A DNA stretch of 64,000 nucleotides, taken from contig OZ244961.1 of assembly GCA_965222715.1 (NCBI GenBank), positions 76,609 through 140,608 of the forward strand. The letters are read 5' to 3'. Positions 4,755 to 23,193 of this stretch are shown one piece after another. The notes beneath the pieces are model-generated. The model searched no databases. It was not told where the DNA came from and saw only the letters and a list, made by a program, of their open reading frames with translations. This DNA comes from Minisyncoccota bacterium (lineage in GTDB: Bacteria; Patescibacteriota; Minisyncoccia; Phycocordibacterales; JABMNX01). The position numbers were made by a program, and so were the translations under genes. How positions within the stretch are numbered: the stretch's first letter is position 1; every line of letters begins with the position of its first letter.

Positions 4755-5843
4755 CTACCCCTCTCGCTCAAGCTCTGTATGGTAGTCTACTTCAAATATC
4801 TTCCACATTGAAAGGAAGAAACCAGCAATCACTGGACCAATAATAAAGCCAGTAATACCAAAGAGTGACAGCCCACCAATAGTCGAGAGAAGGACAATCG
4901 CGTCAGGCATTTTGGTGTCACGACCCACAAGAATTGGTCGAAGTATATTATCAATAAGGCTAATGAGTATTGAGCCCCCAGCAAGTATCAGTACTCCTTC
5001 CCAGATTGCGCCGGAGAGTAAGAGAATCACTCCAGCAGGAAGCCACACGATCCCAGGGCCAATAGCTGGAATAATTGAGAGGAGCACCATGACGACACCC
5101 CACAAAAGTGCCGCCTCAATACCAACAATAAAGAAGAGTATACCCCCAATGGTTCCTTGAATGAGTGCAATCACTAAGGTTCCTTTAAAAATTGAGCGCG
5201 TAATTTTAGAAAAGTTACTAAAAAGGGCTTCCTCTCGTTCATCGCCAAGTGGGAGTACATGTTCAATAGTGCGTGCAATTCGTGGACCATCGCGAAGCAT
5301 GAAGAAGAGGAGGTAGAGCATGAGGAGGAAGCTAATCACTACACCAAATGTTGCTTGTCCTACGAGTACAGCTTGACGTGCAAACCAGTTGCTTACGGTC
5401 TGAGCAATTGACGCAAGTTTTTCTTTTACTTCAGCTTCTTCAATACCGTACGCTTCAAGACGCGCAAGCTGCTCAGCACCTTGATTAATTAAACTTGCTC
5501 GAGAATTCTCAAAACTCCCATCAGCAAATCGATTATAGGTGCTCAAAGACTCTTCAACAACGAGCCCGCCAACAAACCACAAGGGTACAAAAATAACTAC
5601 AATGATAGTAAGAATGGTAAGCAGAGAAGCTACTGATCTATTTTTTATCCATGAAACCCATTTCTGCTGCACTGGGTGAAAGACAATAGCAAGCACAATT
5701 GCCCAAAAAATTGGCATCAAAAAATCATTAATCAACCAGATAAAAATACCGGTACTAAAAATAAGGAGACCGAAAAAGAGGCTGTTCTGGACGGTAAAAA
5801 AGTCAGTCAGTCGTTGATATTTCATTACTGGGCATTGTAGCAC
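4755..5843 (-). CDS. AI-2E family transporter (PerM/YhhT-like permease)
   Basis: Multi-TM protein with typical AI-2E motifs (PIFWAIVLAIVFHP, LLSIIPAIGPGIVWLPAGV). Confidence 0.7.
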   Translation of the reverse strand: MLQCPVMKYQRLTDFFTVQNSLFFGLLIFSTGIFIWLINDFLMPIFWAIVLAIVFHPVQQKWVSWIKNRSVASLLTILTIIVVIFVPLWFVGGLVVEESLSTYNRFADGSFENSRASLINQGAEQLARLEAYGIEEAEVKEKLASIAQTVSNWFARQAVLVGQATFGVVISFLLMLYLLFFMLRDGPRIARTIEHVLPLGDEREEALFSNFSKITRSIFKGTLVIALIQGTIGGILFFIVGIEAALLWGVVMVLLSIIPAIGPGIVWLPAGVILLLSGAIWEGVLILAGGSILISLIDNILRPILVGRDTKMPDAIVLLSTIGGLSLFGITGFIIGPVIAGFFLSMWKIFEVDYHTELEREG

Positions 5844-5934
5844 GCCGCTTACAGAAGTGAAGGTGCCTAAGAGTAATCACAGAAGTAATTACAGAAGCAA
5901 AACGGACGTCCATGAGAGGACGTCCGTGAGAGGT

Positions 5935-6450
5935 TTAGGCTTCGCCTTCAACCTGAAGTAGGGCGATATCAAGTGCGGCTTCAGGTATGGGAGACCCGGC
6001 GAGAATTGGTTGAAAGACGGGGTAGAAATCAGAGTATTCTCTCACCATAAGCTCAAGAGTTTGCTCAATGATCTCATACATCGTCTCGTCAGGTATGTTT
6101 TCTGAAGGAACCGAGTATCGAAAAAAAATACCAAGGTCCATTTCATCGATCGAGAAGAATCCGAGTGATGTTCGTTCGTTTACAAGAGCAAGCCCTTTAT
6201 AGACTGCATCGAGTATCTCTGGTTTCGCAATCAGATCATCATCTCGGAGTACAAAACAGACTCGTGCACCTGCGCTACTCCAGAAGGCTTCCAGCATCAT
6301 GTTTTCTGGTATAGCAACAGTGATACCGTCGCAATATTCACTCCGACTTTCATCGTATTGCCAGTCGTTCCTCTCCGCAATTTCTTTGATGTGTTGGAGT
6401 GGGCTGGACTGACTTTCCAAATGATCAGAAACTTCAGTAGGTCTCGTCAT
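5935..6450 (-). CDS. Hypothetical cytoplasmic protein, possibly YbjN-like
   Basis: 171-aa acidic protein in a GC-rich segment; weak resemblance to the YbjN sensory-regulator fold. No catalytic motif recognised. Confidence 0.35.
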   Translation of the reverse strand: MTRPTEVSDHLESQSSPLQHIKEIAERNDWQYDESRSEYCDGITVAIPENMMLEAFWSSAGARVCFVLRDDDLIAKPEILDAVYKGLALVNERTSLGFFSIDEMDLGIFFRYSVPSENIPDETMYEIIEQTLELMVREYSDFYPVFQPILAGSPIPEAALDIALLQVEGEA

Positions 6451-6577
6451 TACTTTGACCTCCTTAATCTACATCTATCTACTACAGTAATATGCTCCCT
6501 GTTTTTGTAAAGTATATATTAAGAATGATATGGAAAACGAAAAGGCCAACGACGTGTGTCGTTGACCTTGGTATTCA

Positions 6578-6778
6578 TCAGCTTCGTTGGAGAAGCTCAC
6601 GGATGCCGAAATCGAATTCGTAGACGATGTTCGGGTCGATGCCGGCGAGATGCATGATCCCAGGGCTCAGCAAAAGTGCGGTGACGAAAATTCCGATGAG
6701 GCATTCGCCCCAAAAGTCCAAGCGTTCCCGCTTCATTTTTTGTTGCCAGGAACTGAGATTTGATTTCTGTGTATACAT
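6578..6778 (-). CDS. Small membrane protein (~66 aa)
   Basis: The internal ATG at 6778 is preceded by GGAGGT. Translation MYTQKSNLSSWQQKMKRERLDFWGECLIGIFVTALLLSPGIMHLAG... has one TM helix. The ORF track's longer 106-aa version lacks an RBS. Confidence 0.3.
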   Translation of the reverse strand: MYTQKSNLSSWQQKMKRERLDFWGECLIGIFVTALLLSPGIMHLAGIDPNIVYEFDFGIRELLQRS

Positions 6779-6860
6779 GATAAGGTACCTCCTACTATTA
6801 ATAATATCATAAATAAATATATTTGTCAATAATGCGTAGAAATATAAAAAGAAGAAGCCC

Positions 6861-7178
6861 CTAAGGAGCTCCTTCGGGACTTGTTTGATTCTTTCCACCT
6901 GGCCAGCGTCTGTAGTAATAGATAAGAGCCAAGATGACGGTGTGGCAGGCGATACTGGTGAAGTAAATGATCGAGAGTTTCCAGTCGATCTCTTCTTGAA
7001 TGAGGATGTGAATCAGAACGATGACCTGCATCGCAAATGAACCCCATATCAAGAGGAGTGAAATTGAATCGGCTGTTTTTACCCGAATCAAGAGTTTGAT
7101 TTGGGGCAAAAATATCGTCCATCCAACTACTCCAATACCAGCAACAAGCCATGCGATTACTTCACGGAAGATTTCCAT
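6861..7178 (-). CDS. PQ-loop / SemiSWEET-like 3-TM membrane protein
   Basis: ~100 aa with three TM helices and the conserved P-Q dipeptide in TM1 (TIFLPQIKLLIRVKTADSIS). GGAGG RBS upstream. Confidence 0.5.
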   Translation of the reverse strand: MEIFREVIAWLVAGIGVVGWTIFLPQIKLLIRVKTADSISLLLIWGSFAMQVIVLIHILIQEEIDWKLSIIYFTSIACHTVILALIYYYRRWPGGKNQTSPEGAP

Positions 7179-7239
7179 GACTATCCTCCAGTCGGTTACT
7201 AAGTAAAATTATACTTCAATTAATAGTTTTGTCAATATA

Positions 7240-7412
7240 TTGGACACACCAAAAAACCACTTGGTACAAAGGTACAAAGTGGTCTGTTTTGGTTCAAATT
7301 GGTATAGATGTGGAAATTGTCGGGACGAGTGGAAAACCTTAATTACCAATTTGGTATATACCAGTACAGAGTGGTATATAGTGGCTTAAAACAAGGACCT
7401 TGAACCTTTTTC
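7240..7412. promoter_or_regulatory. Cluster of direct and inverted repeats upstream of the methyltransferase gene
   Basis: Near-palindrome ccacttggtacaaaggtacaaagtggt. Three copies of the tggtata(g/t)a...gtgg core: tggtatagatgtgg, tggtatataccagtacagagtgg, tggtatatagtgg. Confidence 0.3.
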
Positions 7413-8318
7413 TTGTATATGATAATATTTTTAAGTATGAAGAAAGTACCGATATATAAGAAATACAAAAAAGGAACTCATAACTATATATTAAACACTG
7501 ACACGAATGACGCCCTTCGCTCATTTGAAGATGATTCCCTTGATTTGATAGTTACAAGCCCTTCTTATTATTTAGGAAAAGATTATGAAAAAGATGAATC
7601 TTTTCAGGACTACTTAAACTATCATAAAGAGACTATCGATCTACTATACAAGAAGTTGAAAAAAAACGGATCTATTTATTGGAATGTTGCACAAACTCCA
7701 ATTAATGATGAAATAGTTCCACTAGGTGCAATTTTCTATCAGTCGTTTAAAGACGCTGGGTTTTATATGAAGAATTGGATTATTTGGCACTTTGAGGGAG
7801 GTGTAAATACGAAAGCCCGTTTCTCTGGTCGCTATGAAAATATACTTTGGTTTGTTAAAAATCCTCAAGATTACACATTTAATCTAGATGATGTTAGAGT
7901 CCCTGCAAAATGGCAAAGTGATAAAAGAGTAAATCCTAAAGGTAAGAATCCTACAGATGTCTGGGAGTTTTCTTTAGGTGATTTAAAGTCCGAAGAAGTT
8001 GATTTCTTTGTTAATGCTGTTATTTCAGACAAACGTAGGGATAAATCTGACGAAACAGATAATTTTCTATATTTAGATAGAGTAGTAAATGTAAGCAAAG
8101 AAAAGACTACTCATCCTTGCCAGTTTCCTGAGAAGTTAATAGAACGAATTATAAAAGTGTCTTCTAATAAAGGTGATGTTGTTGCAGATATCTTTCTCGG
8201 AAGTGGAACAACGGCAAAAGTCGCTTCTGATTTAAATCGAAAATTCATTGGTATAGAAAGAGATAGAGATTATTGCAATATCGCCAAGAAGAGAATTGAA
8301 AAACATGCAAAAAAGTAA
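7413..8318 (+). CDS. DNA methyltransferase, beta-class N4-cytosine/N6-adenine type (PF01555-like)
   Basis: Motif IV SPSYY (DLIVTSPSYY) lies N-terminal to motif I FLGSGTT. Conserved NPTDVW and HPCQFPEKLIERII segments. The start may be the ATG at 7437. Confidence 0.8.
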   Translation: MYMIIFLSMKKVPIYKKYKKGTHNYILNTDTNDALRSFEDDSLDLIVTSPSYYLGKDYEKDESFQDYLNYHKETIDLLYKKLKKNGSIYWNVAQTPINDEIVPLGAIFYQSFKDAGFYMKNWIIWHFEGGVNTKARFSGRYENILWFVKNPQDYTFNLDDVRVPAKWQSDKRVNPKGKNPTDVWEFSLGDLKSEEVDFFVNAVISDKRRDKSDETDNFLYLDRVVNVSKEKTTHPCQFPEKLIERIIKVSSNKGDVVADIFLGSGTTAKVASDLNRKFIGIERDRDYCNIAKKRIEKHAKK

Positions 8319-8820
8319 AATATTTGGCTCTGCGTTGATTGATTGTGTTACCACAAAATATCTTGATCCGACTCAGGAATTTTTATTTAGAGATGATTCG
8401 TTGATTTGGTTTCTTTGTAAAAATAGAGATATATATAAAGTTCAAACTCAAATATTGAAAGATTTTAAGCATGCCTTTAGGGTTGCCTGGATTTATCCTT
8501 TTGAACTAGAGGGCAATAAACCAAGTAATGATTTTTATTTTTTGTTTGCTGCGTACAAGAACAACGTTTATTTTTTTGACAAAGATCCTATCAGGGAGAA
8601 ACATATTTGGGAAAAAGTCGAGTGGGGGAAAAGAAAGAAAAACTATAACCCTAAAGGGAAAGATCCTGGGACGGTATGGATAGAAATAGAAGACGACGGT
8701 AATGGAAAAGTAATTTCTTATTCACCATATTCCAAAATAGATTTATTGGAGAGGTTGAAGATTTCTTCTCTAAAAAATAAAAAAGAGGATTTTTTAGTGC
8801 TAAGTAAGATCTCTTTTTAA
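8296..8820 (+). CDS. Degenerate methyltransferase-like paralog lacking catalytic motifs
   Basis: Collinear with the C-terminal two-thirds of the upstream MTase (KDPGTVW vs NPTDVW; YSPYSKIDLLERLKISS vs THPCQFPEKLIERIIKVSS). The motif IV position reads TTKYLD, not SPPY, and the ORF stops where motif I would begin. Confidence 0.45.
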   Translation: MKNMQKSKIFGSALIDCVTTKYLDPTQEFLFRDDSLIWFLCKNRDIYKVQTQILKDFKHAFRVAWIYPFELEGNKPSNDFYFLFAAYKNNVYFFDKDPIREKHIWEKVEWGKRKKNYNPKGKDPGTVWIEIEDDGNGKVISYSPYSKIDLLERLKISSLKNKKEDFLVLSKISF

Positions 8821-8829
8821 TATTTCCTT

Positions 8830-9573
8830 ATGCATAGAATCTATAACAAAAGTTCAAAAAAGATGAGTGGGATCAATAAAGGATCTATCGATTTCATATT
8901 CACCTCTCCTCCATATTGGGATTTAAAGGATTATTTAAATTCAGAGCAGATAGGGTATAAGCAAAGTTATACTGATTATCTTTCAGATATGCTAACAGTT
9001 TGGACAGAGTGCTTCCGTGTTTTAAAGCAAGATGGGGTAATTTGTATAAACATTAATGATCGGTTTGTGAAAGGTAAATATTATCCAATTCACTTGGATT
9101 TTTATAATCAATTAAAGTCTATTGGGTTTAAGTTTTTTGATATGTATATATGGCACAAGGCGAGTGGCGTTCCCGCTGGTAAAAACAAACTGACCGATCG
9201 TTTGGAATATATAATTGTCGCTTCTGGTAAAAAAATAAAATATAAAGATTTTAAAAAAATAGATCGATACAAAAATGACAACCTTATAAGTAGTAAATCT
9301 TGGCATGTGGTTAAAAAGGCAGGGTCAATTATTAGTTCACATCCACACCCTGCATTTTTTCCTTCGGAATTAGTTGAACTTGGGATCTTACAGTTCACTA
9401 AACCAAATGAAACAGTTCTAGATCCCTTTCTTGGAGTAGGAAATACTCTAATAGCATCTGAAAAATTGGGTAGGAAGTCAGTTGGTTTTGAAATAAATAA
9501 CCAATATATAAAAACAACCTTGTCGGTTGTTGATGATGCCACAAAAAAGAAAATCTCTGTTATTAAGAGCTAG
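8830..9573 (+). CDS. Second DNA methyltransferase, beta-class N4/N6 type
   Basis: Motif IV IDFIFTSPPYW, motif I FLGVGNT near the C-terminus, HPHPAFFPSELVE motif in between. Confidence 0.8.
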   Translation: MHRIYNKSSKKMSGINKGSIDFIFTSPPYWDLKDYLNSEQIGYKQSYTDYLSDMLTVWTECFRVLKQDGVICININDRFVKGKYYPIHLDFYNQLKSIGFKFFDMYIWHKASGVPAGKNKLTDRLEYIIVASGKKIKYKDFKKIDRYKNDNLISSKSWHVVKKAGSIISSHPHPAFFPSELVELGILQFTKPNETVLDPFLGVGNTLIASEKLGRKSVGFEINNQYIKTTLSVVDDATKKKISVIKS

Positions 9574-11567
9574 TTCATGAATTTCTCATAGAGTCGGTCA
9601 TCGATAATCTCCTCTTTTCGAAGGAATTCAATATTAATAGGCTCAAGCAGTCCTTTATCAAAAAGGGAGGTCATTCTATCAAGTAAACCTATCCCCAAGT
9701 TATTATTTTTTGATAGATCTCTGTACAAAGGAATTCTTGTCTCCCTGTCTCCGTGGGTTAATTTCCTATGACACTCCGAACATATCCCCACCAGGTTTAG
9801 ATGGTGGTCAGGCCCATTATCTGTGGAGAAAGGAATAATATGATGAAATTCCAAATAGGGCTTATTGTTTTTGTTTTTAAAAGTCGTCTTTGTACAAACA
9901 TCGCACGGAATTAACCCAGTAGTCTCTTGCGTGAAATTTTTCAAGTAGTAATTTCTGAGATTCTTTATTAGTTCTGAACTTCTTGAATTAGATGCATCTC
10001 TTGAGATGAGTGCTGATAATTCCTCTAGATTTTTTACACTGTAGTCTACATCTTCGACCAGCAACTCCTCAAGATCAATTATTGGTTTATAAACCTCCTC
10101 TCTCAACATATCTTGTGTATTTGTCAGTACTTCCAGCAATTCTGTGGATGAGTATCCAAGTACTTTTTTAAAGTAGGGGAATATTGATATTCCTTTTTTT
10201 AGTACAGCTTGGCTAAGTTTAAAATCGAACTGTCCCACAATAAGACAAATTCTTATATAAACAAGAGCCAAAAGTAGGCCTTTATCAAAATTAATGATGT
10301 ATTTACCCCACCCATAGGTAATTTCCAAATCCTCTTCCAAATCCTTCCCCTTTACCTTCCTTTTATAATTTTTAGATATAAAATCTTTCCAGTCCGAGTA
10401 TTCTTTTTGATAACCTTCGTCAAGGTAGTTAACTAGAGTCTTATAGTTGTCGAGTGTAAAATCAAACCTCTCTTTGTTTGATATTTTGAAAATTGACCCG
10501 TTTTCGGTAGAGATTATTGCAGAAGGGTTTGTTCCAGAGTCTTTTTGCTGGTTGGTGATACCTAGGACGAATTTCTTTAATTCTTTTCTAAAATCTTCAT
10601 CTTTAATATCAGCTATGCGACCAAATTTTTCAATGATTTCTTTTGTCTCTTCAAATCCACCCTCAGTTTCATGCACTAATGTGGTCAAGTTATCAGTGTC
10701 TCTAGTTCTCGCTAGTATAAATTTATACCAATCAAGATCTAAGATTTTTCTTAGGTCCAATGCTTTTAGGAGATTAAAATAAGGATGAGTATTTATATCA
10801 AAATTCTCTACGGAATGCCCTGGTATTTCGCTAATGTTTTTTATGATGGTAAAAGGTGACTGTGAAAGCATCTTTATCTTTTGATGCTCCCACACAATAC
10901 AGACCTCATGAAAATTACCGTAAAGTACTGATTTACCAACTGGTGTTAATCTATAGAAACCACTAAGATCTGCGCGATCACGACCGAAGAAAAATCCATA
11001 GTAAAAAAATATTTGTCTCTCATTCCGTATTGTTGCTGGGAAGTCAGATACTTGAGTCCTTATATCTATATCCGTCATCCCATCTTTCTTCATAGTATCC
11101 TTAAGAATCCCCAAGACCTCATTATGTGTTTTGTGTTCATAAAGCAGTTCTTTAATTTGTTTTTTGTAACCCGCTTGTCCCCCTATATCCATTAGGTACA
11201 TGAAGTAATATTTCTTTGCTTCATTGAGATAGAGGATTTGATCTTTTTCATTTGCAAAACCACCTCTATCTTTTACATATTCATAAAACCTCATTACTCT
11301 TTTTTTGTCCCTAATGTCTACAGAATAGAAAAAGTCTCTTGCGGCTTCTTGCACTTCTTCTGGAAGTGATTGGATAAAGGAGTCAAAGTTCTTGATTATT
11401 TCCTCGTAGACATTGTCATGCAATGGATCATTAAAGAATATAAAGTAATAATAAACAAACCATTTTTTTAGGTACCAGAGGGTCCCAGCCTGGCTTTCCT
11501 TGGAGAATTCCATCGATTTGGTAATCCAATAGTTCCCCGGCAAGAGGTTTTGATTAAAGCTTTCCAT
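9570..11567 (-). CDS. Large protein with C-terminal HNH nuclease motif; candidate restriction endonuclease of the adjacent R-M module
   Basis: C-terminus CDVCTKTTF...LEFHHIIPFSTDNGPDHHLNLVGICSECHRKLTH matches the CxxC...HH...N...CxxCH zinc-bound HNH signature. Convergent with and overlapping the second MTase gene. The N-terminal 500 aa are unassigned. Confidence 0.6.
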   Translation of the reverse strand: MESFNQNLLPGNYWITKSMEFSKESQAGTLWYLKKWFVYYYFIFFNDPLHDNVYEEIIKNFDSFIQSLPEEVQEAARDFFYSVDIRDKKRVMRFYEYVKDRGGFANEKDQILYLNEAKKYYFMYLMDIGGQAGYKKQIKELLYEHKTHNEVLGILKDTMKKDGMTDIDIRTQVSDFPATIRNERQIFFYYGFFFGRDRADLSGFYRLTPVGKSVLYGNFHEVCIVWEHQKIKMLSQSPFTIIKNISEIPGHSVENFDINTHPYFNLLKALDLRKILDLDWYKFILARTRDTDNLTTLVHETEGGFEETKEIIEKFGRIADIKDEDFRKELKKFVLGITNQQKDSGTNPSAIISTENGSIFKISNKERFDFTLDNYKTLVNYLDEGYQKEYSDWKDFISKNYKRKVKGKDLEEDLEITYGWGKYIINFDKGLLLALVYIRICLIVGQFDFKLSQAVLKKGISIFPYFKKVLGYSSTELLEVLTNTQDMLREEVYKPIIDLEELLVEDVDYSVKNLEELSALISRDASNSRSSELIKNLRNYYLKNFTQETTGLIPCDVCTKTTFKNKNNKPYLEFHHIIPFSTDNGPDHHLNLVGICSECHRKLTHGDRETRIPLYRDLSKNNNLGIGLLDRMTSLFDKGLLEPINIEFLRKEEIIDDRLYEKFMN

Positions 11568-11944
11568 TCTTGAAGATTAAGTCTTTTAACCCTCTTTTTC
11601 AAGGACTATTTTACTTATCGATATATAACCCTTATTATTTAGAAACAATTGAATAAAGACCTAACCCTCTTTTTTCGAGGTATGGTCGTAAATCGTAAGC
11701 CACAAAGAACCCATCATTAGGGCGTGGCTTACGTTATAAGGGGAAACTCTTATAGGGTCGCAAGACCTCCTAGTGGTGGGCTTTTTGTTTCCCCACTAGA
11801 TTATTAGCCAATAGCTAGATATATGGGAATAAAGAAAATATTTATAACTCTAGCAGTAGTGATTATTTGGGGGTTAATAATGTTCTATCAATTTGGTGGT
11901 TTCGGGAAATCATTTCTTGAGACTTGTAATCCTGACACAGGAGA

Positions 11945-12157
11945 ATGTCAGCCACTAAAATGATAGATACATTCAAAGATACAAATAAAAGGCAATGTTA
12001 TTGTGATAACCCATCATGTCGGAAGTGTTTAATGACGAATTGTATTCAGGATAGTTGTCAGTATCATTCTCTCGAAAAGAAGTTGAAAGCAAGAAGTGAA
12101 GTAAGCGACCCTGTATACCAAACAGAAGTAAAAAGAATTCAGAAGATTTTGGAGTAA
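11945..12157 (+). CDS. Small cysteine-rich protein (7 Cys), possible zinc-binding regulator
   Basis: MSATKMIDTFKDTNKRQCYCDNPSCRKCLMTNCIQDSCQYH...; isolated in a 1.2-kb AT-rich non-coding stretch. Weak call. Confidence 0.25.
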   Translation: MSATKMIDTFKDTNKRQCYCDNPSCRKCLMTNCIQDSCQYHSLEKKLKARSEVSDPVYQTEVKRIQKILE

Positions 12158-12765
12158 ATGTCGCTACACGCTACTGTTGCTTAGAAACTCTCTTGTATTG
12201 AAGTGGTCTATATTGAATCATTTCATTTCATAATGGTTTATTTTGGTATGTAGGCATTCGTATCTTGAGTTTTTATATCTAAAGTGGTGCAAAAGCACAC
12301 TCCTACAAAAAAGCTGGTCAGCTGTTTAAACGCTCAAAACACCAGCATACACTCCTTATAAAAGTTGTGGATAAGGATTTCATTATCTTTGAGGTTAAGG
12401 GTCTGCCTTGAGCCGCTTACACTCTCATATACAGCATAAAACCCTTTAAACGCTTTGTTTTAAAGGTACTTTATCTTTTTCTCGTAACTCGGTTAAAACG
12501 GAGTTAGAGTGTTTGTTCTCCACGAGCTTTGTTTGATACAGTAAATACAGGCACCTTAAAAATTACATAACTGCATATGTAGGTTGGCGATGACGGAGCT
12601 CTTTGAGCAAGTTAAAGGCCTTAATTACGAGCAGGGAATCATAAACGCTTTTGTTTGCGTACGGATTTTTTGTTTGTAATTGGGGCTTTTTTATTTTCAC
12701 CATTGTGGAAAAAAACTTACAAGAATTAATAGAGGATGAAGAAATTTCTCGAGTCATAGCTGAGT

Positions 12766-14562
12766 ATGTTTCAGCAATCGAGAGTATTTTTGAGCATTCT
12801 CAAAAATCATATGAACAAGAAAAGAACGAAAAAGAGTGACTGGGGAGAGGGTGCGGCAGAGACAGATATATCTAGACCTCCACGAAAACTTCCATCAAAA
12901 AATAAAGACTTACTAAAATGGGCTAAAATGTACCACTCAAAAGGTCTGTCTATTATTCCTGTCCGTAGCGACAAGAAACCAACCATTACATCATGGAAGG
13001 AGTATCAGGAAAGGAAACCTACCGAGGAAGAAATACAGAAATGGTTTTCTGACTCTACTGTTACAGGCATTGCTGTCATCACAGGAAAAATCTCAGGAGT
13101 TGTGGTTATTGATTGTGAAAAAGACTTCGACTACTCGTTGGTCGATTTTCCTGAGACGGTTGTCTCTCGTACTGGAGGAGGGGGAAAACACTTCTTTTTC
13201 CGTTATCCAAAAAATATAAAAGTTGGAAACAAAACTCGCTTTTTGCCGAATGCTGATGTTCGTGGCGATGGAGGGTATGTACTCGTTCCTCCATCTTTGC
13301 ACTATTCGGGAGGAAGTTATGAGTGGGAGAAGGAATTTGATAGAGAAAATCTTACAGACTTGCCTGAGTGGTTTCTAAAGGAATCATCTCAGCCCAACAT
13401 CAAACCTCGTGTTGTTAGTGTTGCAGAAGGTCAGCGTAACCGAACGGCAACAGAAATCATCGGTAAGTTGGTTGCTCACCTTCCTGAAAGTGATTGGGAT
13501 TCGGTGGCACTTCCATTGCTGGAGGCATGGAACGAGACAAATATTCCACCAATGGGTATTGATGAGTTACAAAGGGTCTACACCTCAATTACCGAACGAG
13601 AGCAACGAAAACACACTTCTTCGTTCAAACCAATTTCTTTCCGTGAATTACAATCCCTGTCGTCTCAAAAAACAGATTGGTTGGTAGAAGACCTGTTTCC
13701 AAGCGGGAGTGTGAACATTCTCTCTGGTTACCCTGCAAGTTACAAAACATGGCTTTTGCTCCATATCGCTCTTTGTGTTTCCAAAGGTGTTCCTGTATTC
13801 GGCAAGTTTCAAGTGAAGCAAGGTAAAGTGCTTGTTGTTGATGAGGAGAACATACATAAACTCCTTTGCGAAAGATTAAGCAAGCTCGGTGTGTCTGAGG
13901 ATTCAGATATGAAACTTTCCGTATATGCAGGATTGAAACTTGATTCAAAGCACACTATAGAAGCACTCCGTGCCTATATACAGAAAGAGAAAATCTCTCT
14001 CGTGACCATAGATAGTTTGGTTCGTATTCACGACAAAGAAGAAAATGATGCAAAACAAATCTCTGACCTCTTCGCCTCTCTACGAAAACTTTCTGACACA
14101 GGGGTTACGGTCATCATTACACACCACAACAGAAAACCATCCGTGGGTAAATCTTCCATTAGTCACGACCTACGAGGGTCTTCGGACATTCTTGCTTCTG
14201 CAGACGGTCATATTGCTGTATCACGAAAAGAAAAAGAGAGAATCGTAAAGGTCTCCCAAAATAAAATGAGGTTTAAGGAAGAGACAGATCCTTTTGAGGT
14301 TGAGTTGGTCGAGAAAAATGGAATCGTTATACCAACCTACATTGGCGTCACTAGCTCATCAAGACCCAAGAGGGATGTTGCACGAGAAAGGGTTGTGGAA
14401 TTGGTGTCGTCAGGCACTGATACTAGAAAGGCTATCGTTGAAGCATTGAGTGGAGAGTGTGGTGTAGCAACGATTGATATCGTACTGAAAGAACTCGTGA
14501 ATAAAGGTCTGCTGTCGGTTTCCACAGAGGCAAACAACCTCAAGAGGTACAGCGTTCTGTAG
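12766..14562 (+). CDS. Replication protein: Prim-Pol primase-polymerase N-terminal domain + PriCT-like + RepA/AAA_25-like P-loop ATPase
   Basis: Prim-Pol signatures (GLSIIPVRSDKKP, GIAVITGKISGVVVIDCEKD, GGGKHFFFRYP, VRGDGGYVLVPPS). Walker A-like SGYPASYKTW and Walker B VLVVDEE in the C-terminal half. Confidence 0.7.
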   Translation: MFQQSRVFLSILKNHMNKKRTKKSDWGEGAAETDISRPPRKLPSKNKDLLKWAKMYHSKGLSIIPVRSDKKPTITSWKEYQERKPTEEEIQKWFSDSTVTGIAVITGKISGVVVIDCEKDFDYSLVDFPETVVSRTGGGGKHFFFRYPKNIKVGNKTRFLPNADVRGDGGYVLVPPSLHYSGGSYEWEKEFDRENLTDLPEWFLKESSQPNIKPRVVSVAEGQRNRTATEIIGKLVAHLPESDWDSVALPLLEAWNETNIPPMGIDELQRVYTSITEREQRKHTSSFKPISFRELQSLSSQKTDWLVEDLFPSGSVNILSGYPASYKTWLLLHIALCVSKGVPVFGKFQVKQGKVLVVDEENIHKLLCERLSKLGVSEDSDMKLSVYAGLKLDSKHTIEALRAYIQKEKISLVTIDSLVRIHDKEENDAKQISDLFASLRKLSDTGVTVIITHHNRKPSVGKSSISHDLRGSSDILASADGHIAVSRKEKERIVKVSQNKMRFKEETDPFEVELVEKNGIVIPTYIGVTSSSRPKRDVARERVVELVSSGTDTRKAIVEALSGECGVATIDIVLKELVNKGLLSVSTEANNLKRYSVL

Positions 14563-14710
14563 TTTTTTGGTTTTTACCACTATATATATGAAAAAAACCA
14601 TTAAACCAAAGCATTTTTTCACCCCTCCTTAGATTTTGGAGGAATGTCTCCTAGGATAAATATAGGCCATTTTGGTCCACTTTAGTTCATTACAAGATTA
14701 ATAAAATCCT

Positions 14711-15460
14711 ATGAAGACAAAATGTATCGCTTATTGTCGGACCTCCACCGATAACCAAAAGGAGGAAAAAACTATTGAATTACAGGTTGAAAAACTAACG
14801 GAGTATGCAGAGCAGAACAATATTGAGATAGTCCGTTGGTTTAAGGATGACGGAGTAAGTGGTGGTCTTGAAGAACGACCTGCCCTTATGAGTCTCATGA
14901 AATTCCTTGAAACAAATATGGATGTAGAGGCAGTCCTAATCTACAAACTAGACCGACTTGCTCGAGACCTCTACATACAAGAAGGTCTTATACAGGAATT
15001 CACTAAGCTTAAACGAAGAGTCATATCTTCTATGGAATCTAACCTAGAGGGCAATGACCCATTTCGTAAAGCTTTTAGACAAATGCTCGGTATATTTTCT
15101 GAATTTGAGAAATCAATGATTACACTTCGGATGAAAAACGGCAGAGCCAGTTCGGTAGCAAAAGGTAATTGGCACGGAGGAAGCATCTACGGATACGATC
15201 ACGGAAAGAACGGAGAACTTATCATTAATAAAGCAGAATCGGAGGTCATCAAAAGGATTTGGCATCTAAAACGGTACAAACAGATGAATGCTTCTCAAAT
15301 CTCAAAAATCCTTAACGAAGAAAAAGTTCCAACAAAACGGAAAGATACAAAATGGTACCCACTTACCGTAAGGAAGATACTCAGAAATCCTATTTACCGA
15401 GGAGTCATTAGGTACAAAGGAAAAACTTATGAAGGAAATCACGAACCAATCCTCAAATAA
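14711..15460 (+). CDS. Serine recombinase, truncated large-serine-recombinase type (lacks zinc-ribbon and coiled-coil)
   Basis: N-terminal resolvase motif CIAYCRTSTDNQ (catalytic Ser). Recombinase-domain segment GGSIYGYDHG...YRGVIRYKGKTYEGNHEPIL ends where the zinc-ribbon region would begin. Confidence 0.75.
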   Translation: MKTKCIAYCRTSTDNQKEEKTIELQVEKLTEYAEQNNIEIVRWFKDDGVSGGLEERPALMSLMKFLETNMDVEAVLIYKLDRLARDLYIQEGLIQEFTKLKRRVISSMESNLEGNDPFRKAFRQMLGIFSEFEKSMITLRMKNGRASSVAKGNWHGGSIYGYDHGKNGELIINKAESEVIKRIWHLKRYKQMNASQISKILNEEKVPTKRKDTKWYPLTVRKILRNPIYRGVIRYKGKTYEGNHEPILK

Positions 15461-16895
15461 TGAATTTCTAGCTTATGTTCGGGTAAGCTCGAGAGATCAA
15501 TCACGAGGGACATCTATTAAAGAACAGAAAGCTCACATCCAAAGGTATGTACACCAGAAAGGTTTTCGGGTTGTTAAGTATTACGAGGAGGTAGAATCTG
15601 CATCTAAAGCTGGAAGAGGTACTTTTGACACAATGATGAAAGACTTACGAGAAAATAAACATCAGGGGATTATATTTCACAAAGTTGATAGAAGCGCTAG
15701 AAACCCAAAAGACCAAGCTTTGCTTTATGAGCTTATGCAAGAGGGCTTTGAGTTACATTTCGTTGCGGAGAATCTATCAACTATTGATCCAATGGCGAGG
15801 AATATGATGTATATGCTCTGGGGTATGGCTTCTGGGTATAGTGAAAATCTAAAAGCAGAAATTAATAAAGGTCAGTTGGGTAGGTTAAAGCAGGGTCGCA
15901 ATCCTGCATATATTCCACTTGGGTACAAAAGAGCAGAAGAATGTAGAGCCGTTATTGATACAGACAAAGCACCCTTAATAAAAACTCTCTACGAGGATTA
16001 TGCTACTGGTCGTTACACAATGAAAACGATCGGAAAGAGGGCAAATAAAATCGGCTTAACCAATCGTCATGGTAATAAGGTTGATAAAAACGGAATAGAC
16101 AGAATACTCAGCAACACTTTTTACTACGGCCTCATCACTCATAAGAAAGGTATCTTCCCAGGTGAACATGAGCCACTTATATCAAAATCTCTTTATGACC
16201 GTGTTCAGTACATCAGAGAATTGAGGGGTTTTAAAAGAGAGGTGTCTCACAACTATATTTTTCAGGGGATGATGAAATGCCCCTGTTGTCATCAGCCGTT
16301 AAAATTAATGACATCAAAGAGAATATTCATCTACTACTATTGCAGAGAGAAAAGCTGTGACTTTAAAACTCTGCGAGAGGAATACGTCAGTCTCCTTATG
16401 CTACAGGAGTTAAGAAAGATAGAATTTAAGAATGAGGAACTCGAAGCGTTCAGGAAAGCACTAAACGCCTTTAAAAAAGTTGCAGAAAAATCCAGAGAAG
16501 AACAATCTCGTGTTATAGACCTTGAGCTAAAGAAGTTACGCTCTCGTCTCGATGACCTACTAAATAAATTTGTCGATGAAAAGATTGATGATGAAACCTA
16601 CAATCGAGCCCGAAAAGAGTTGCTTGATAGAGAGGTTATTCTTAAAGAAAGGAGAAGGGCTCTCGAGGATGGAGACAATAAAAAATTTGACCAAATTGAG
16701 AAACTCGGAAAACTACTTAAAAGTCCTTCCGTTGCTTACGAAAATGCTGATTCTATTGATAAAAGGAGGTTACTCAAAGTAATGGTGGAAAACCTTCACT
16801 TCGAGGGAGAAAAGCTTGTAATTAAATGGAAAAAGCCGTTTGACATGATAGCCAAACGACCTATTTCCGAAACTAGTGGAGATGGCGGGGATTGA
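15429..16895 (+). CDS. Large serine recombinase (resolvase + recombinase + zinc beta-ribbon + coiled-coil)
   Basis: AYVRVSSRDQ catalytic motif, recombinase domain, CPCCHQP...YYYCREKSCD zinc ribbon, long C-terminal coiled coil. The last ~6 codons overlap the tmRNA 3' end. Confidence 0.8.
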   Translation: MKEITNQSSNNEFLAYVRVSSRDQSRGTSIKEQKAHIQRYVHQKGFRVVKYYEEVESASKAGRGTFDTMMKDLRENKHQGIIFHKVDRSARNPKDQALLYELMQEGFELHFVAENLSTIDPMARNMMYMLWGMASGYSENLKAEINKGQLGRLKQGRNPAYIPLGYKRAEECRAVIDTDKAPLIKTLYEDYATGRYTMKTIGKRANKIGLTNRHGNKVDKNGIDRILSNTFYYGLITHKKGIFPGEHEPLISKSLYDRVQYIRELRGFKREVSHNYIFQGMMKCPCCHQPLKLMTSKRIFIYYYCREKSCDFKTLREEYVSLLMLQELRKIEFKNEELEAFRKALNAFKKVAEKSREEQSRVIDLELKKLRSRLDDLLNKFVDEKIDDETYNRARKELLDREVILKERRRALEDGDNKKFDQIEKLGKLLKSPSVAYENADSIDKRRLLKVMVENLHFEGEKLVIKWKKPFDMIAKRPISETSGDGGD

Positions 16896-17289
16896 ACCCG
16901 CGTCCATTGTTGGGTACATAGATGAGTCTACAGAGGGCTAGTTTATTTTAATCTGCCAATAGGCAGAGGTTAAACAGAGTGCGTAAAAAATAAACAAAAT
17001 CACACTATGCCGAGTTCCGTAGTTTAAAGATAGGTATTGGAACGGGTACCTACTCGAGATTAGTGGGTATAACACCACAGCGTTCATACTAATCAACTAA
17101 CCGTGTGGCGATCGCACCGCGAGCTTATGCTCGAGCGTATGCGAATTGGAAGTCACTCATCTTGAAAGGTGAGAGATTTCCGAGTGTAGATTTCTTTGCA
17201 TCTACAAGTTCTCAGTTTTTATAGCAGTACTGAGGCTACTCCCTTGCACATGTATATACGAATCAACAGTGTCGAAGCCAATCATCCCC
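16877..17289 (-). ncRNA. ssrA: tmRNA (transfer-messenger RNA)
   Basis: Minus-strand 5' GGGGATGATTGGCTTCGAC... and 3' ...GGACGCGGGTTCAATCCCCGCCATCTCCA (tRNA-Ala-like acceptor with G3-U70, T-arm GGTTCAATCC). Internal tag ORF ...AKKSTLGNLSPFKMSDFQFAYARA* follows an in-frame TGA. smpB lies directly adjacent. Confidence 0.75.
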
Positions 17290-23112: not shown

Positions 23113-23186
23113 CCACCCTTAGCTCAGTTGGTTAGAGCACAGAGCTTATATCTCTGCGGTCCCAGGTTCGAATCCTGGAGGGTGGA
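23113..23186 (+). tRNA. tRNA-Ile (anticodon TAT)
   Basis: Cloverleaf with acceptor ccaccct/agggtgg, D-arm gctcagttggttagagc, anticodon loop cttatat (UAU), T-arm ccaggttcgaatcctgg. No CCA encoded. Confidence 0.7.
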
Positions 23187-23193
23187 CTAGGTG

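What the first reader, a model, noticed from the sequence alone, without database searches (positions are those of the whole stretch)
7180..16895. ~9.7 kb AT-rich integrated element ending at the tmRNA (ssrA) 3' end: R-M module, Prim-Pol replication protein and tandem serine recombinases
The large serine recombinase's stop codon lies ~19 nt inside the tmRNA 3' acceptor/T-arm (16877-16895). This is the classic integration geometry at ssrA. Everything between there and ~7200 is compositionally distinct (about 30-40% GC versus ~45% for the flanking host genes ftsH/smpB and infC). The cargo is a restriction-modification system, a primase-polymerase/P-loop replication protein with iteron-like repeats, a Cys-rich small ORF and two serine recombinases. 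I could not find the distal partial repeat of the tmRNA 3' end, so the left boundary is unresolved; the repeat-rich 7240-7412 segment is the best candidate. Serine-recombinase-mediated islands at ssrA, apparently in a CPR-like genome, are poorly characterised.
Basis: partly seen in the sequence, partly recalled or inferred. Interest (0 to 1): 0.7.

Follow-up and report, generated by a model that had tools for sequence, protein, structure and literature searches.

The report
Serine-recombinase island at the tmRNA gene
A 9.6-kb mobile element carrying a restriction-modification system sits exactly at the 3' end of the tmRNA gene of a candidate-phyla-radiation bacterium, put there by a serine recombinase whose own gene is split by the insertion, which is an unusual way to target tRNA-like genes.

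Summary
The window holds a 9,566-bp integrated element (about 7,310 to 16,877) in a Patescibacteria/CPR chromosome. It lies between ssrA (tmRNA, 16,876-17,289, minus strand) and ssrA's own terminator, now orphaned at 7,250-7,290.

The right end is a large serine recombinase (LSR) gene whose last 20 nt are the tmRNA 3' end. The element belongs to an undescribed family, of which 16 further distinct loci were recovered. The usual core is LOOT RNA, small ORFs, PrimPol/helicase, a small serine recombinase and the LSR. Cargo varies and is defence-like; here it is two methyltransferases and an HNH nuclease. In 14 of the 16 further loci the LSR gene ends inside tmRNA, tRNA-Arg or tRNA-Pro.

There is no long tDNA repeat. 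attL and attR share only 4-9 bp, always starting at GT, the complement of A73-C74. This fits a 2-bp serine-recombinase crossover.

The left end carries a conserved block. Joined to the LSR gene in the circle, it restores an in-frame C-terminal tail (RDxWKTL...) typical of the wider family. A natural contig with this intact attP exists. So attP lies inside the LSR gene, and integration swaps the enzyme's C-terminus.

The nearest precedent is the Dehalococcoides ssrA islands (DsiA/DsiB), which have a 20-bp repeat and a T-loop crossover. I rate this a new variant of a known kind.

The parts
7250..7290 (-). Orphaned intrinsic terminator of ssrA. It is host DNA, just outside the element.
   Evidence: Hairpin plus U6 on the tmRNA strand: dG -20.9 kcal/mol, z -3.2, and 0 of 200 shuffles fold as well. 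Empty-site relatives have the same layout, with a terminator hairpin within a few to about 25 nt of the ssrA 3' end. L112 has an equivalent orphaned hairpin outside its attL.
7310..7337 (+). attL. Crossover core GT is at 7310-7311 (shared core GTGGA, 7310-7314). It is followed by the element's P' arm with the conserved block GGGACGAGTGGAAAAC at 7322-7337.
   Evidence: The block GT-N10-(G/A/T)(G/A/T)GAC-N3-TGGAAAAC occurs once in the 64-kb window. It sits at the left end of five other elements (L081, L083=L090, L084, L105, L112), always 12 nt after a GT where identity with attR begins.
7309..7389 (+). Detached 3' end of the LSR reading frame: 26 codons (CGNCRDEWKTLITNLVYTSTEWYIVA) plus the TAA stop. 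It becomes in frame with the LSR gene only in the excised circle.
   Evidence: The frame is open for 25-40 codons in all six elements. Three elements have no in-frame start codon upstream. Motif R/C-D-x-W-K-T-L-x3-[LIV]-[FYV] is conserved through synonymous codon changes. It aligns with the C-terminal extension of contiguous family members.
7413..8318 (+). Cargo: DNA methyltransferase 1 (beta-class N6A/N4C)
   Evidence: PF01555 E 1.3e-58. PADLOC MTase_II 1.8e-63.
8296..8820 (+). Cargo: 174-aa ORF of unknown function with a short methyltransferase-like patch (NPKGKDPGTVW)
   Evidence: No Pfam, NCBIfam, PADLOC or PHROG hit. Weak local similarity to methyltransferase 1.
8830..9573 (+). Cargo: DNA methyltransferase 2 (beta-class N6A/N4C)
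   Evidence: PF01555 E 5.8e-46. PADLOC MTase_II 8.1e-45.
9570..11567 (-). Cargo: 665-aa protein with a C-terminal HNH nuclease domain, the putative restriction endonuclease
   Evidence: PF01844 HNH 9.3e-08 at residues 555-605. Weak PADLOC REase hits over the HNH part only.
11658..11768 (+). LOOT RNA (Rfam RF03000), a hallmark of the element family at the border between cargo and core
   Evidence: 71.9 bits against a gathering score of 46.4. The same RNA lies 2.8-5.2 kb upstream of the LSR gene, on the same strand, in L081, L082, L083/L090, L086, L103, L104, L106, L109, L112 and L113.
11823..11963 (+). 46-aa hydrophobic ORF, conserved next to LOOT in related elements
   Evidence: tblastx matches in L081 and L083/L090. 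Translation.
11945..12157 (+). 70-aa Cys-rich ORF, not conserved in the other elements
   Evidence: no family hit. No tblastx match.
12766..14562 (+). Replication protein: Prim-Pol + PriCT_1 + AAA_25/DnaB_C-like ATPase
   Evidence: Pfam. PHROG primase/polymerase and helicase families. 40-43% identical orthologues lie in the same position in L081, L083/L090 and L086, and Pfam Prim-Pol + AAA_25 proteins lie there in L104 and L112.
14711..15460 (+). Small serine recombinase: catalytic domain plus recombinase domain, with no zinc ribbon or coiled coil. It overlaps the LSR start by 32 nt.
   Evidence: PF00239 5.4e-32 and PF07508 5.2e-13. It aligns to LSR residues 14-251 only, at 23% identity. It is 65-70% identical across elements, more conserved than the LSR.
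15429..16895 (+). Large serine recombinase in its integrated form (488 aa). Its last 6 codons and the stop are tmRNA-gene DNA.
   Evidence: PF00239, PF07508 and PF13408. Invariant catalytic and Cys residues. Family of 47-57% identical homologues.
16833..16862 (-). Element-borne hairpin plus U-tract on the tmRNA strand, 13 nt past the tmRNA 3' end. It is a candidate replacement terminator and lies within the codons for KPFDMIAKRP.
   Evidence: 12-bp stem. dG -22.0, z -4.9. Equally strong in L086, L104 and L112, weaker in L082 (z -1.85), and not significant in the other seven loci tested.
16876..16877 (+). attR crossover core GT, the complement of discriminator A73 and C74 of the tmRNA
   Evidence: Identity between attL and attR starts exactly here in all six elements where both ends were seen.
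16876..17289 (-). ssrA (tmRNA), the integration target, left intact

Best explanation
This is a site-specific integrative element of about 9.57 kb, a small defence island with its own replication module.

How it integrates. It was inserted by its large serine recombinase (LSR) at the extreme 3' terminus of ssrA. The LSR pairs attP with attB. attP spans the last codons of the LSR gene. attB consists of the acceptor/T-arm of the tmRNA gene on one side and the spacer before the ssrA terminator on the other. The LSR exchanges strands at a 2-bp core, GT on the + strand, which is A73-C74 of the tmRNA.

Consequences of that geometry:
- ssrA stays intact up to C74.
- No tDNA duplication is made.
- The host terminator is displaced 9.6 kb away. 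In this subclade a hairpin inside the LSR 3' coding region appears to replace it.
- The LSR gene loses its last roughly 25 codons and instead ends six codons into the tmRNA gene.
- Excision would rebuild a 508-aa LSR with the family-typical tail RDEWKTL....

Other components (inferred). After excision the PrimPol/helicase would replicate the circle. The small serine recombinase is an accessory partner, either a resolvase for the replicon or a co-recombinase/directionality partner. The LOOT RNA belongs to the conserved core. The two methyltransferases plus the HNH protein form an R-M-type cargo.

Shown versus inferred. Shown by sequence comparison: the boundaries, family membership, target range, the ORF continuity across attP, and one natural intact attP. 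Inferred: the catalytic roles, the exact dinucleotide, replication, and any regulatory meaning of the tail swap.
For: 1. Recurrence. 16 further distinct loci carry an LSR 47-66% identical to this one (51-57% over the full length). In 14 of them the LSR gene ends inside a t(m)RNA gene. Eleven are at tmRNA (L081, L082, L086, L087, L103, L104, L105, L106/L107, L112, L113 and the window's own subclade), two at tRNA-Arg(CCG) (L083/L090, L085) and one at tRNA-Pro(UGG) (L084). L108 and L109/L110 do not end in one. 22 of 25 close homologues have C-termini that translate a t(m)RNA 3' end, such as GGDGGS or GNRTR.

2. Insertion. 80 relatives share ftsH-smpB-ssrA-...-infC and lack this element's LSR, PrimPol and HNH genes. 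Empty sites have ssrA followed by a terminator.

3. Left end. A conserved block lies at 7310-7337 and at the left end of five other elements, 12 nt after the GT where attL/attR identity starts. The shared cores are GTGGA, GTGGAGA, GTGC, GTCGGGC, GTGGAG and GTGGAGATG. The orphaned terminator lies just outside.

4. No long repeat in any locus.

5. The split gene. Joining the LSR to the left end gives an open in-frame tail of 25-40 codons in 6 of 6 elements. The chance of this is about 1e-5 at the element's stop-codon frequency of 0.057. Conservation is through synonymous changes (CGG/AGA, TTA/CTC/CTA). The tail aligns with the C-terminal extension of contiguous distant LSRs.

6. Natural intact forms. 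Contig L111 (P0026) reads aatgGTggagcgaataGGGAAcaaTGGAAAAC inside an uninterrupted LSR ORF. P0129 has the same tail.

7. Domains and catalytic residues are intact.
Against: - There is no direct evidence of mobility: no reads, no circle junction, no excised or empty allele of this very strain. Exact look-ups found no other contig.
- The crossover dinucleotide is inferred from six attL/attR pairs. It could lie 1-2 bp to the right of GT.
- The P and P' arms show no clear dyad symmetry, and the B arm is not conserved between hosts. Both are unusual for LSR sites.
- The tail motif overlaps the probable LSR binding site, so some of its conservation could be at the DNA level.
- A database search designed to find more intact-tail proteins returned only truncated forms.
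- The replacement-terminator hairpin is strong in only 4 of the 9 tmRNA-associated loci tested. The count of terminator-like sites in the region is not above chance.
- The HNH protein is called a restriction enzyme on its domain and neighbourhood only.
Confidence: 0.8

Rival explanations
1. This is a classical tDNA island, like the Dehalococcoides ssrA islands or tyrosine-integrase islands. The crossover would be inside the T-loop or T-stem. The element would carry a replacement 3' end of ssrA, and a displaced roughly 20-nt copy would sit at the far end but has decayed beyond recognition.
For: The LSR stop codon lies in the T-loop, exactly where McMurdie et al. place the Dehalococcoides crossover (PMC3146451). 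The first 16 nt of the left-end block resemble the tmRNA 3' end (11 of 16). [quoted passage not shown]
Against: Six independent elements all lack the repeat. Identity with the target ends after 4-9 bp. The left-end block of the tRNA-Arg and tRNA-Pro elements resembles the block of the tmRNA elements far more than it resembles their own targets. The same block occurs uninterrupted inside an intact LSR ORF in L111.
Confidence: 0.07
2. The small 249-aa serine recombinase, alone or as an obligatory heteromer with the LSR (CcrA/CcrB or DsiA/DsiB style), is what integrates the element. On this view the LSR alone is not the integrase.
For: The two genes overlap by 32 nt and co-occur in most elements. 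The small one is the more conserved (65-70% against 51-57%). Precedents exist for paired serine recombinases at ssrA and orfX.
Against: Elements L103, L106/L107 and the ssrA-proximal element of L113 lack the small recombinase, yet their LSR genes end in the tmRNA gene in the same way. The small protein lacks the zinc-ribbon/coiled-coil part that gives LSRs their att-site recognition. Higher conservation fits a fixed internal site, such as a res-like site, better than changing host targets do.
Confidence: 0.2
3. This is a dead remnant: a formerly mobile island now fixed and decaying. The overlap with ssrA would then have no present function.
For: No excised form or polymorphism was observed. 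The 174-aa ORF looks like a degenerate methyltransferase fragment. Degraded copies of the module do exist elsewhere (L113 and L108).
Against: All core ORFs are full length with catalytic residues. The detached tail frame is still open and carries the motif. The GC shift is not ameliorated.
Confidence: 0.12
4. This is a prophage or phage satellite rather than a plasmid-like integrative element.
For: PHROG families match the PrimPol, the recombinases and the methyltransferases. The element is of satellite-like size and has a primase-helicase.
Against: No capsid, terminase, portal or other packaging gene was found in this element or its relatives. IMG/VR has no homologue above 27% identity. GenBank phages reach at most about 27%.
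Confidence: 0.08

Closest known systems
Dehalococcoides ssrA-specific genomic islands with the DsiB/DsiA integration module (McMurdie et al. 2011, PMC3146451)
   Same: A large serine recombinase next to ssrA with a smaller serine recombinase in tandem. Islands of about 10 kb with variable cargo. Accretion of tandem islands (seen here in L113). No conjugation or capsid genes.
   Different: [quoted passage not shown] Here there is no repeat and the exchange is at A73-C74. Their module has RecF-, ParB- and Mom-like genes and an embedded tRNA-like gene. This one has LOOT RNA and PrimPol/helicase. This family also uses tRNA-Arg and tRNA-Pro. Sequence relatedness to DsiB was not tested.
Phage-type large serine integrases (phiC31, Bxb1, A118, TP901-1)
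   Same: Domain architecture: catalytic domain, recombinase domain and zinc ribbon. Short att sites sharing little beyond a central dinucleotide, hence no flanking repeats (established knowledge of LSRs).
   Different: Only the catalytic domain is detectably similar to any solved LSR. Phage and plasmid homologues reach at most 30% identity. The target is the end of a tRNA-like gene. attP lies inside the recombinase ORF.
SCCmec cassette chromosome recombinases CcrA/CcrB
   Same: These are the best NCBIfam matches for both recombinases. Like them, this is a pair of serine recombinases integrating at the 3' end of an essential single-copy gene.
   Different: Scores are about 90 bits against cut-offs of 700-900, so these are not Ccr proteins. 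CcrA and CcrB are both full-length LSRs (own knowledge). Here the partner lacks the zinc-ribbon/coiled-coil region.
Classical tRNA/tmRNA-gene islands with tyrosine integrases (Islander/TIGER; Williams 2002)
   Same: The target is the 3' part of a t(m)RNA gene, the integrase gene is adjacent to the target, and the target gene is preserved.
   Different: There is no tyrosine recombinase and no displaced tDNA fragment. The Islander paper states that serine integrases were not known to use tRNA genes. TIGER found only 14 of 297 and asked for proof.
Tycheposons of Prochlorococcus (Hackl et al., bioRxiv 2020.12.28.424599)
   Same: Small cargo-carrying integrative elements with an integrase module plus a primase/helicase replication module, at tRNA genes in a streamlined genome. 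They have no conjugation or capsid genes.
   Different: Tycheposons use a lineage-specific tyrosine recombinase (910 of 937) and leave partial tRNA repeats. Their cargo is mostly nutrient acquisition, whereas cargo here is defence-like.
Elements whose attP lies inside a gene, so that integration changes the product: SSV1-type archaeal integrases and integration-dependent immunity of mycobacteriophages (recalled from the literature, not read here)
   Same: attP lies within a coding sequence, so integrated and free forms encode different proteins.
   Different: Those cases involve tyrosine recombinases. In SSV1 the int gene is split into two large parts. In the mycobacteriophages it is the repressor that is truncated. 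Here only the last roughly 25 codons of a serine integrase are exchanged.

Membership tests
Large serine recombinase (serine integrase) | N-terminal resolvase catalytic domain with the nucleophile serine | tested here: met
   PF00239 E 1.8e-24. The motif YVRVSS and the residues R18, S20, D87, R88 and R91 are invariant in 25 homologues.
Large serine recombinase (serine integrase) | Recombinase domain (PF07508) followed by a zinc ribbon | tested here: met
   PF07508 E 4e-14. PF13408 scores 25.1 bits, just under the 25.3 cut-off. Cysteines C284, C287, C305 and C310 are invariant or nearly so, and homologues carry precomputed PF13408 hits.
Large serine recombinase (serine integrase) | Coiled-coil insertion that controls directionality | not tested
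   Residues about 330-420 are rich in charged heptad-like sequence, but no coiled-coil or structure prediction was run.
Large serine recombinase (serine integrase) | Short attP/attB sites with a 2-bp crossover and no need for further identity | tested here: inconclusive
   Six attL/attR pairs share only 4-9 bp, beginning at GT. This is consistent, but cleavage was not mapped.
Dehalococcoides ssrA-GI (DsiA/DsiB) islands | LSR plus a smaller serine recombinase in tandem next to ssrA | tested here: met
Dehalococcoides ssrA-GI (DsiA/DsiB) islands | [quoted passage not shown] | tested here: not met
   No copy in the 64-kb window or in related loci. Identity stops after 4-9 bp.
Dehalococcoides ssrA-GI (DsiA/DsiB) islands | Integration module with RecF-, ParB- and Mom-like genes and an embedded tRNA-like gene | tested here: not met
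   Pfam, NCBIfam and PHROG scans found none of these. ARAGORN found no tRNA inside the element.
SCCmec Ccr recombinases | Score above the NCBIfam equivalog cut-off for CcrA, CcrB or CcrC | tested here: not met
   About 90 bits against cut-offs of 700-900.
Tyrosine-integrase tDNA island (Islander type) | Tyrosine recombinase plus an intact tDNA and a displaced tDNA fragment | tested here: not met
   No Phage_integrase domain and no fragment.
LOOT RNA (Rfam RF03000) | Covariance-model score above the gathering threshold over the full model | tested here: met
   71.9 bits against 46.4, model positions 1-121.
Type II restriction-modification system | Methyltransferase(s) with a cognate restriction endonuclease | tested here: inconclusive
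   The two methyltransferases are clear. The nuclease is inferred from a C-terminal HNH domain and from adjacency only.
Prophage / phage satellite | Capsid, terminase or other packaging genes, or presence in viral collections | tested here: not met

The most novel reading that the evidence does not exclude
Placing attP inside the LSR gene may be a built-in state switch. The free circle would make a 508-aa recombinase with the conserved RDxWKTL tail. About 12% of the wider family end this extension in -AA, like an ssrA degron. The integrated copy would make a 488-aa enzyme whose end is dictated by the tmRNA gene. The two isoforms would differ in stability or in integration-versus-excision bias, possibly together with the small recombinase. 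That would give a serine integrase directionality control without a separate RDF. In the same reading, LOOT RNA is the regulatory or replication RNA of this element family. The family would also be a reprogrammable set of LSRs that read the acceptor/T-arm of different t(m)RNA genes.
Probability: 0.3. Interest if true: 0.8.

Novelty: new variant of a known kind. Interest (0 to 1): 0.68.

Why it matters
1. Serine integrases are generally held not to target tRNA-type genes. The one described exception (Dehalococcoides) works through a 20-bp repeat. Here a whole family uses tmRNA, tRNA-Arg and tRNA-Pro by exchanging at the very last nucleotides of the gene. That explains why repeat-based island finders would miss it.

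2. An integrase gene that is rewritten by its own reaction is a simple, testable candidate mechanism for directionality or dosage control in LSRs. These enzymes are widely used as genome-engineering tools.

3. The finding gives the orphan Rfam motif LOOT a genomic home.

4. It describes a concrete vehicle for defence genes in CPR/Patescibacteria, whose mobile elements are poorly known.

5. The natural series of closely related LSRs with different, short, highly conserved targets is useful material for studying or engineering att-site specificity.

Tried and rejected
- Exact-sequence look-ups of SmpB and of the LSR, to find the same strain with or without the island, returned nothing.
- Searches for a distal direct repeat were all negative: the 29-mer at up to 3 mismatches, 17-21-mers, and blastn-short in six loci.
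- Local alignment of the right end against the left 3.3 kb, direct and inverted, scored below the shuffles. I therefore dropped the idea of recognisable P/P' dyad symmetry.
- Tandem Repeats Finder found no iterons.
- The strict terminator scan missed the orphaned terminator. Folding showed it.
- A profile of reconstructed fused C-termini searched against 5.8 billion proteins returned only six short, tail-less hits because of the word prefilter. This was uninformative.
- IMG/VR, GenBank phages and PLSDB plasmids hold no close LSR homologue.
- PDB sequence search matched only the catalytic domain.
- The supplement of the paper that introduced LOOT is not held, so its original description could not be read.
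- A distant contiguous homologue (P0064, L114) sits in an 84-kb contig with no tRNA nearby. Whether the wider family also splits its gene remains open.

Full report
**1. The observation**

ARAGORN finds a tmRNA gene at 16876-17289 on the minus strand. Rfam RF00023 matches it full length at 89.6 bits. The 488-aa ORF 15429-16895 on the plus strand ends with TGA at 16893-16895. Its last 20 nt are therefore the reverse complement of the tmRNA acceptor 3' strand, T-stem and half of the T-loop.

- two N6_N4 DNA methyltransferases
- a 665-aa protein with a C-terminal HNH domain
- a Prim-Pol/PriCT_1/AAA_25 protein
- a 249-aa Resolvase + Recombinase protein
- a full large serine recombinase (LSR)

With the boundaries derived below, the element is 36.7% GC. 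Its cargo half is 33.5% and its core half 39.3%, against 42-44% for the flanks. Tandem Repeats Finder finds no iterons.

**2. Host and empty site**

A scan of one genome per species with the adjacent SmpB returned 80 loci. All are Patescibacteria/CPR (Paceibacteria-like), and the best is 73% identical. They share the order ftsH-smpB-ssrA-(0.1 to 8 kb of variable DNA)-infC. None carries this element's LSR at more than 29% identity, nor its PrimPol or HNH genes; only weak 23-40% methyltransferase matches appear in three loci.

In several relatives (L003, L009, L077) ssrA is followed by a terminator hairpin and then infC. So the DNA downstream of ssrA is a variable spot, and the window's element is an insertion. 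Other, unrelated LSR genes abut ssrA in L052, L057 and L061.

**3. The element belongs to a family**

The LSR has about 25 homologues at 48-57% identity. Nearly all have C-termini such as GGDGGS, GGDAGS, SGDGGN or GNRTR..., which are translations of the reverse complement of a tRNA-like 3' end.

Fetching the DNA around such homologues gave 16 further distinct loci. In 14 of them the LSR gene ends inside a t(m)RNA gene:
- tmRNA in L081, L082, L086, L087, L103, L104, L105, L106/L107, L112 and L113
- tRNA-Arg(CCG) in L083/L090 and L085
- tRNA-Pro(UGG) in L084

L108 and L109/L110 do not end in a t(m)RNA gene.

The usual core, read left to right, is LOOT RNA (Rfam RF03000), small ORFs, PrimPol/AAA_25, the small serine recombinase (65-70% identical) and the LSR. 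Some members lack the PrimPol, the small recombinase or both.

To the left of LOOT lies variable, mostly defence-like cargo:
- other R-M systems
- SIR2 + DUF87
- an HTH + reverse-transcriptase pair
- C5 methyltransferase + Vsr
- SMC/AAA_21 proteins

No capsid, packaging, relaxase or secretion genes occur. The family is absent from IMG/VR. Known phages and plasmids have no homologue above 30% identity.

**4. The left boundary and the att sites**

No locus contains a second copy of the t(m)RNA 3' end. Instead, a short block is conserved at the left end of six independent elements: window 7310-7337, L081, L083=L090, L084, L105 and L112. The block is GT-N10-(G/A/T)(G/A/T)GAC-N3-TGGAAAAC. It occurs once in the 64-kb window.

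In each element, identity between the left and right junctions begins exactly at that GT and runs only 4-9 bp:

| Element | Shared core |
|---|---|
| window | GTGGA |
| L081 | GTGGAGA |
| L083 | GTGC |
| L084 | GTCGGGC |
| L105 | GTGGAG |
| L112 | GTGGAGATG |

The base before GT differs in all six pairs. On the t(m)RNA strand GT is A73-C74.

This is the signature expected of a serine recombinase, which exchanges at a 2-bp core and needs no further homology (established knowledge of LSRs). The exchange point is therefore GT, or at most 1-2 bp to its right.

Immediately outside the left junction, on the tmRNA strand, lies a hairpin plus U6 at 7250-7290 (dG -20.9 kcal/mol, z -3.2). Rejoining the two host flanks recreates the tmRNA-spacer-terminator layout seen in empty-site relatives. 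L112 shows the same orphaned hairpin. The element thus spans 7310/7312 to 16877, or 9,566 bp.

**5. attP lies inside the LSR gene**

In all six elements GT occupies codon positions 2-3 of the LSR frame. Joining the LSR gene to the left end, as in the excised circle, continues the frame for 25-40 codons. At the element's stop-codon frequency of 0.057, the chance of this in all six is about 1e-5.

The added tails share R/C-D-x-W-K-T-L-x3-[LIV]-[FYV]. Examples are window SGNCRDEWKTLITNLVY..., L083 ...SRDIWKTLLPSLFY... and L081 ...TRDSWKTLVQELFF.... The changes are synonymous (Arg CGG/AGA; Leu TTA/CTC/CTA). In three elements there is no in-frame start upstream in the integrated state.

The tails align with the natural C-terminal extension of more distant, uninterrupted LSRs, which reads ...ANRPKxxNGGPxRDxxRTWxxLLxxL...F.

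Two database proteins of the near family are uninterrupted. One is P0026, whose contig L111 reads ...aatgGTggagcgaataGGGAAcaaTGGAAAAC... within the ORF. That is a natural intact attP. The other is P0129.

Hence the integrated copy encodes a 488-aa LSR ending in six tmRNA-derived residues, and the circle would encode a 508-aa LSR with the family-typical tail. What this does is not known. I consider a role in stability or directionality plausible but unproven. About 12% of the wider family end in -AA (12 of 120; 17 of 145), which is worth testing as a degron.

**6. Other features**

- *Candidate replacement terminator.* On the tmRNA strand, 13 nt past the tmRNA end, the codons for KPFDMIAKRP form a 12-bp hairpin followed by UUUUUCC. 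It is strong in the window, L086, L104 and L112 (z -4.5 to -5.6), with one compensatory pair change. It is weaker in L082 (z -1.85) and not significant in the other seven loci tested. I read it as a replacement terminator in this subclade, with moderate confidence.
- *The small recombinase.* It aligns only to the catalytic and recombinase domains of the LSR. It is missing from some elements that still end in ssrA. It is therefore an accessory rather than the targeting enzyme.
- *NCBIfam.* Both recombinases fall nearest CcrB/CcrA/XisF, but far below the cut-offs.

**7. Comparison with what is known**

The closest described system is the Dehalococcoides ssrA island family. It has LSR DsiB plus small DsiA next to ssrA, but a 20-bp repeat, a T-loop crossover and a different accessory module (PMC3146451).

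The Islander paper states that serine integrases were not known to use tRNA genes. The TIGER paper found 14 of 297 such cases and called for proof.

In architecture and ecology the element resembles tycheposons: an integrase plus a primase/helicase plus cargo, at tRNA genes of streamlined genomes. Those use tyrosine recombinases and leave tRNA repeats.

I found no report of an LSR whose ORF spans attP. The analogues I recall involve tyrosine recombinases (SSV1-type integrases and integration-dependent immunity).

**8. Verdict**

Four things are added here: the exact boundaries, the family and its target range, and the split recombinase gene; the fourth is the mechanism-consistent absence of a repeat, together with the link to LOOT RNA. 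It is a new variant of a known kind. It is interesting to specialists in site-specific recombination and CPR biology, and mobility itself remains to be shown.

Noticed in passing
window 11658-11768 (+); also L081 4940-5053, L082 4802-4911, L083 6243-6356, L086 48-164, L103 7061-7178, L104 5677-5795, L106 6498-6622, L109 4709-4828 and 18853-18970, L112 5600-5716, L113 6452-6576: The orphan Rfam motif LOOT (RF03000) lies 2.8-5.2 kb upstream of the LSR gene, on the same strand, in 10 of the 13 related elements where that region is covered (11 of 14 with the window). It sits at the border between variable cargo and the conserved core. It is missing from the 3-kb mini-element L084, from L105, and from that position in L108, where a copy lies elsewhere on the other strand. 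A promoter-like site precedes it in the window (11610-11638).
   Followed up: partly
proteins P0026-P0120 and P0128-P0272 (homologues of the window LSR 15429-16895): 12 of 120 LSR homologues, and 17 of 145 family representatives, end in the dipeptide -AA. About 1% would be expected. This is reminiscent of ssrA-like degradation tags. The reconstructed tails of the CPR elements end in -VA, -TA or other residues.
   Followed up: no
L037 9746-9889; L080 10959-10997: In two relatives, ssrA and its terminator are followed by an inverted copy of the ssrA 3' end. In L037 a 20-nt direct copy (CGATTCCCGCCATCTCCACCA) also lies about 175 nt downstream. These may be scars or mini-elements of a different, repeat-forming kind of integration at ssrA. 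In L080 the copy is at a contig end and may be an assembly artefact.
   Followed up: no
L052, L057, L061 (about 10.9 kb; 5.7 kb in L061) and L005/L057 downstream of ssrA: Unrelated LSR genes (22-29% identical to the window's) also end at or next to ssrA in other Patescibacteria. L005 and L057 share a conserved sequence right after the tmRNA end (CCAC|TAG...TTTTGAGCCTCTGG...). ssrA thus seems to be a hot spot for several serine-recombinase families in this group.
   Followed up: partly
L113 1-2624 and 10001-11470: Tandem accretion. A degraded PrimPol, small recombinase and split LSR lie upstream of a second, intact element whose LSR ends in ssrA.
   Followed up: no
L109 9200-9264 / L110 9100-9161: One family member (P0024) ends ...GGHCIKKL* with neither a t(m)RNA gene after it nor the usual left-end block. 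It may be integrated at a secondary site or carry a variant attP.
   Followed up: no
window 23113-23187 (+); also L005, L037, L061: tRNA-Ile with anticodon UAU occurs in the window and in several relatives. This is uncommon in bacteria, which usually decode AUA with a lysidine-modified CAU tRNA.
   Followed up: no
window 7208-7235 (-): A perfect sigma-70-type promoter match (TTGACA-16-TATAAT, 12 of 12) lies directly beside the orphaned ssrA terminator. It faces the small membrane ORF 6861-7178 (-).
   Followed up: no
window 4755-7178: The AI-2E transporter, the YbjN-like protein and the small membrane ORFs lie between infC and the ssrA terminator. They have no counterpart next to ssrA in any of the 80 relatives, although their GC content is host-like. 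They may be an older, ameliorated insertion.
   Followed up: no
L112 11264-11291, L082 11246-11273, L083 11868-11895 (inside the LSR gene, codons for E-x-L-G-K-L-L-K): A near-copy of the left-end block (GAGAC-N3-TGGAAAAC) lies inside the LSR coding region about 190 nt before its end, in another reading frame. It may be coincidence or an extra binding site.
   Followed up: no
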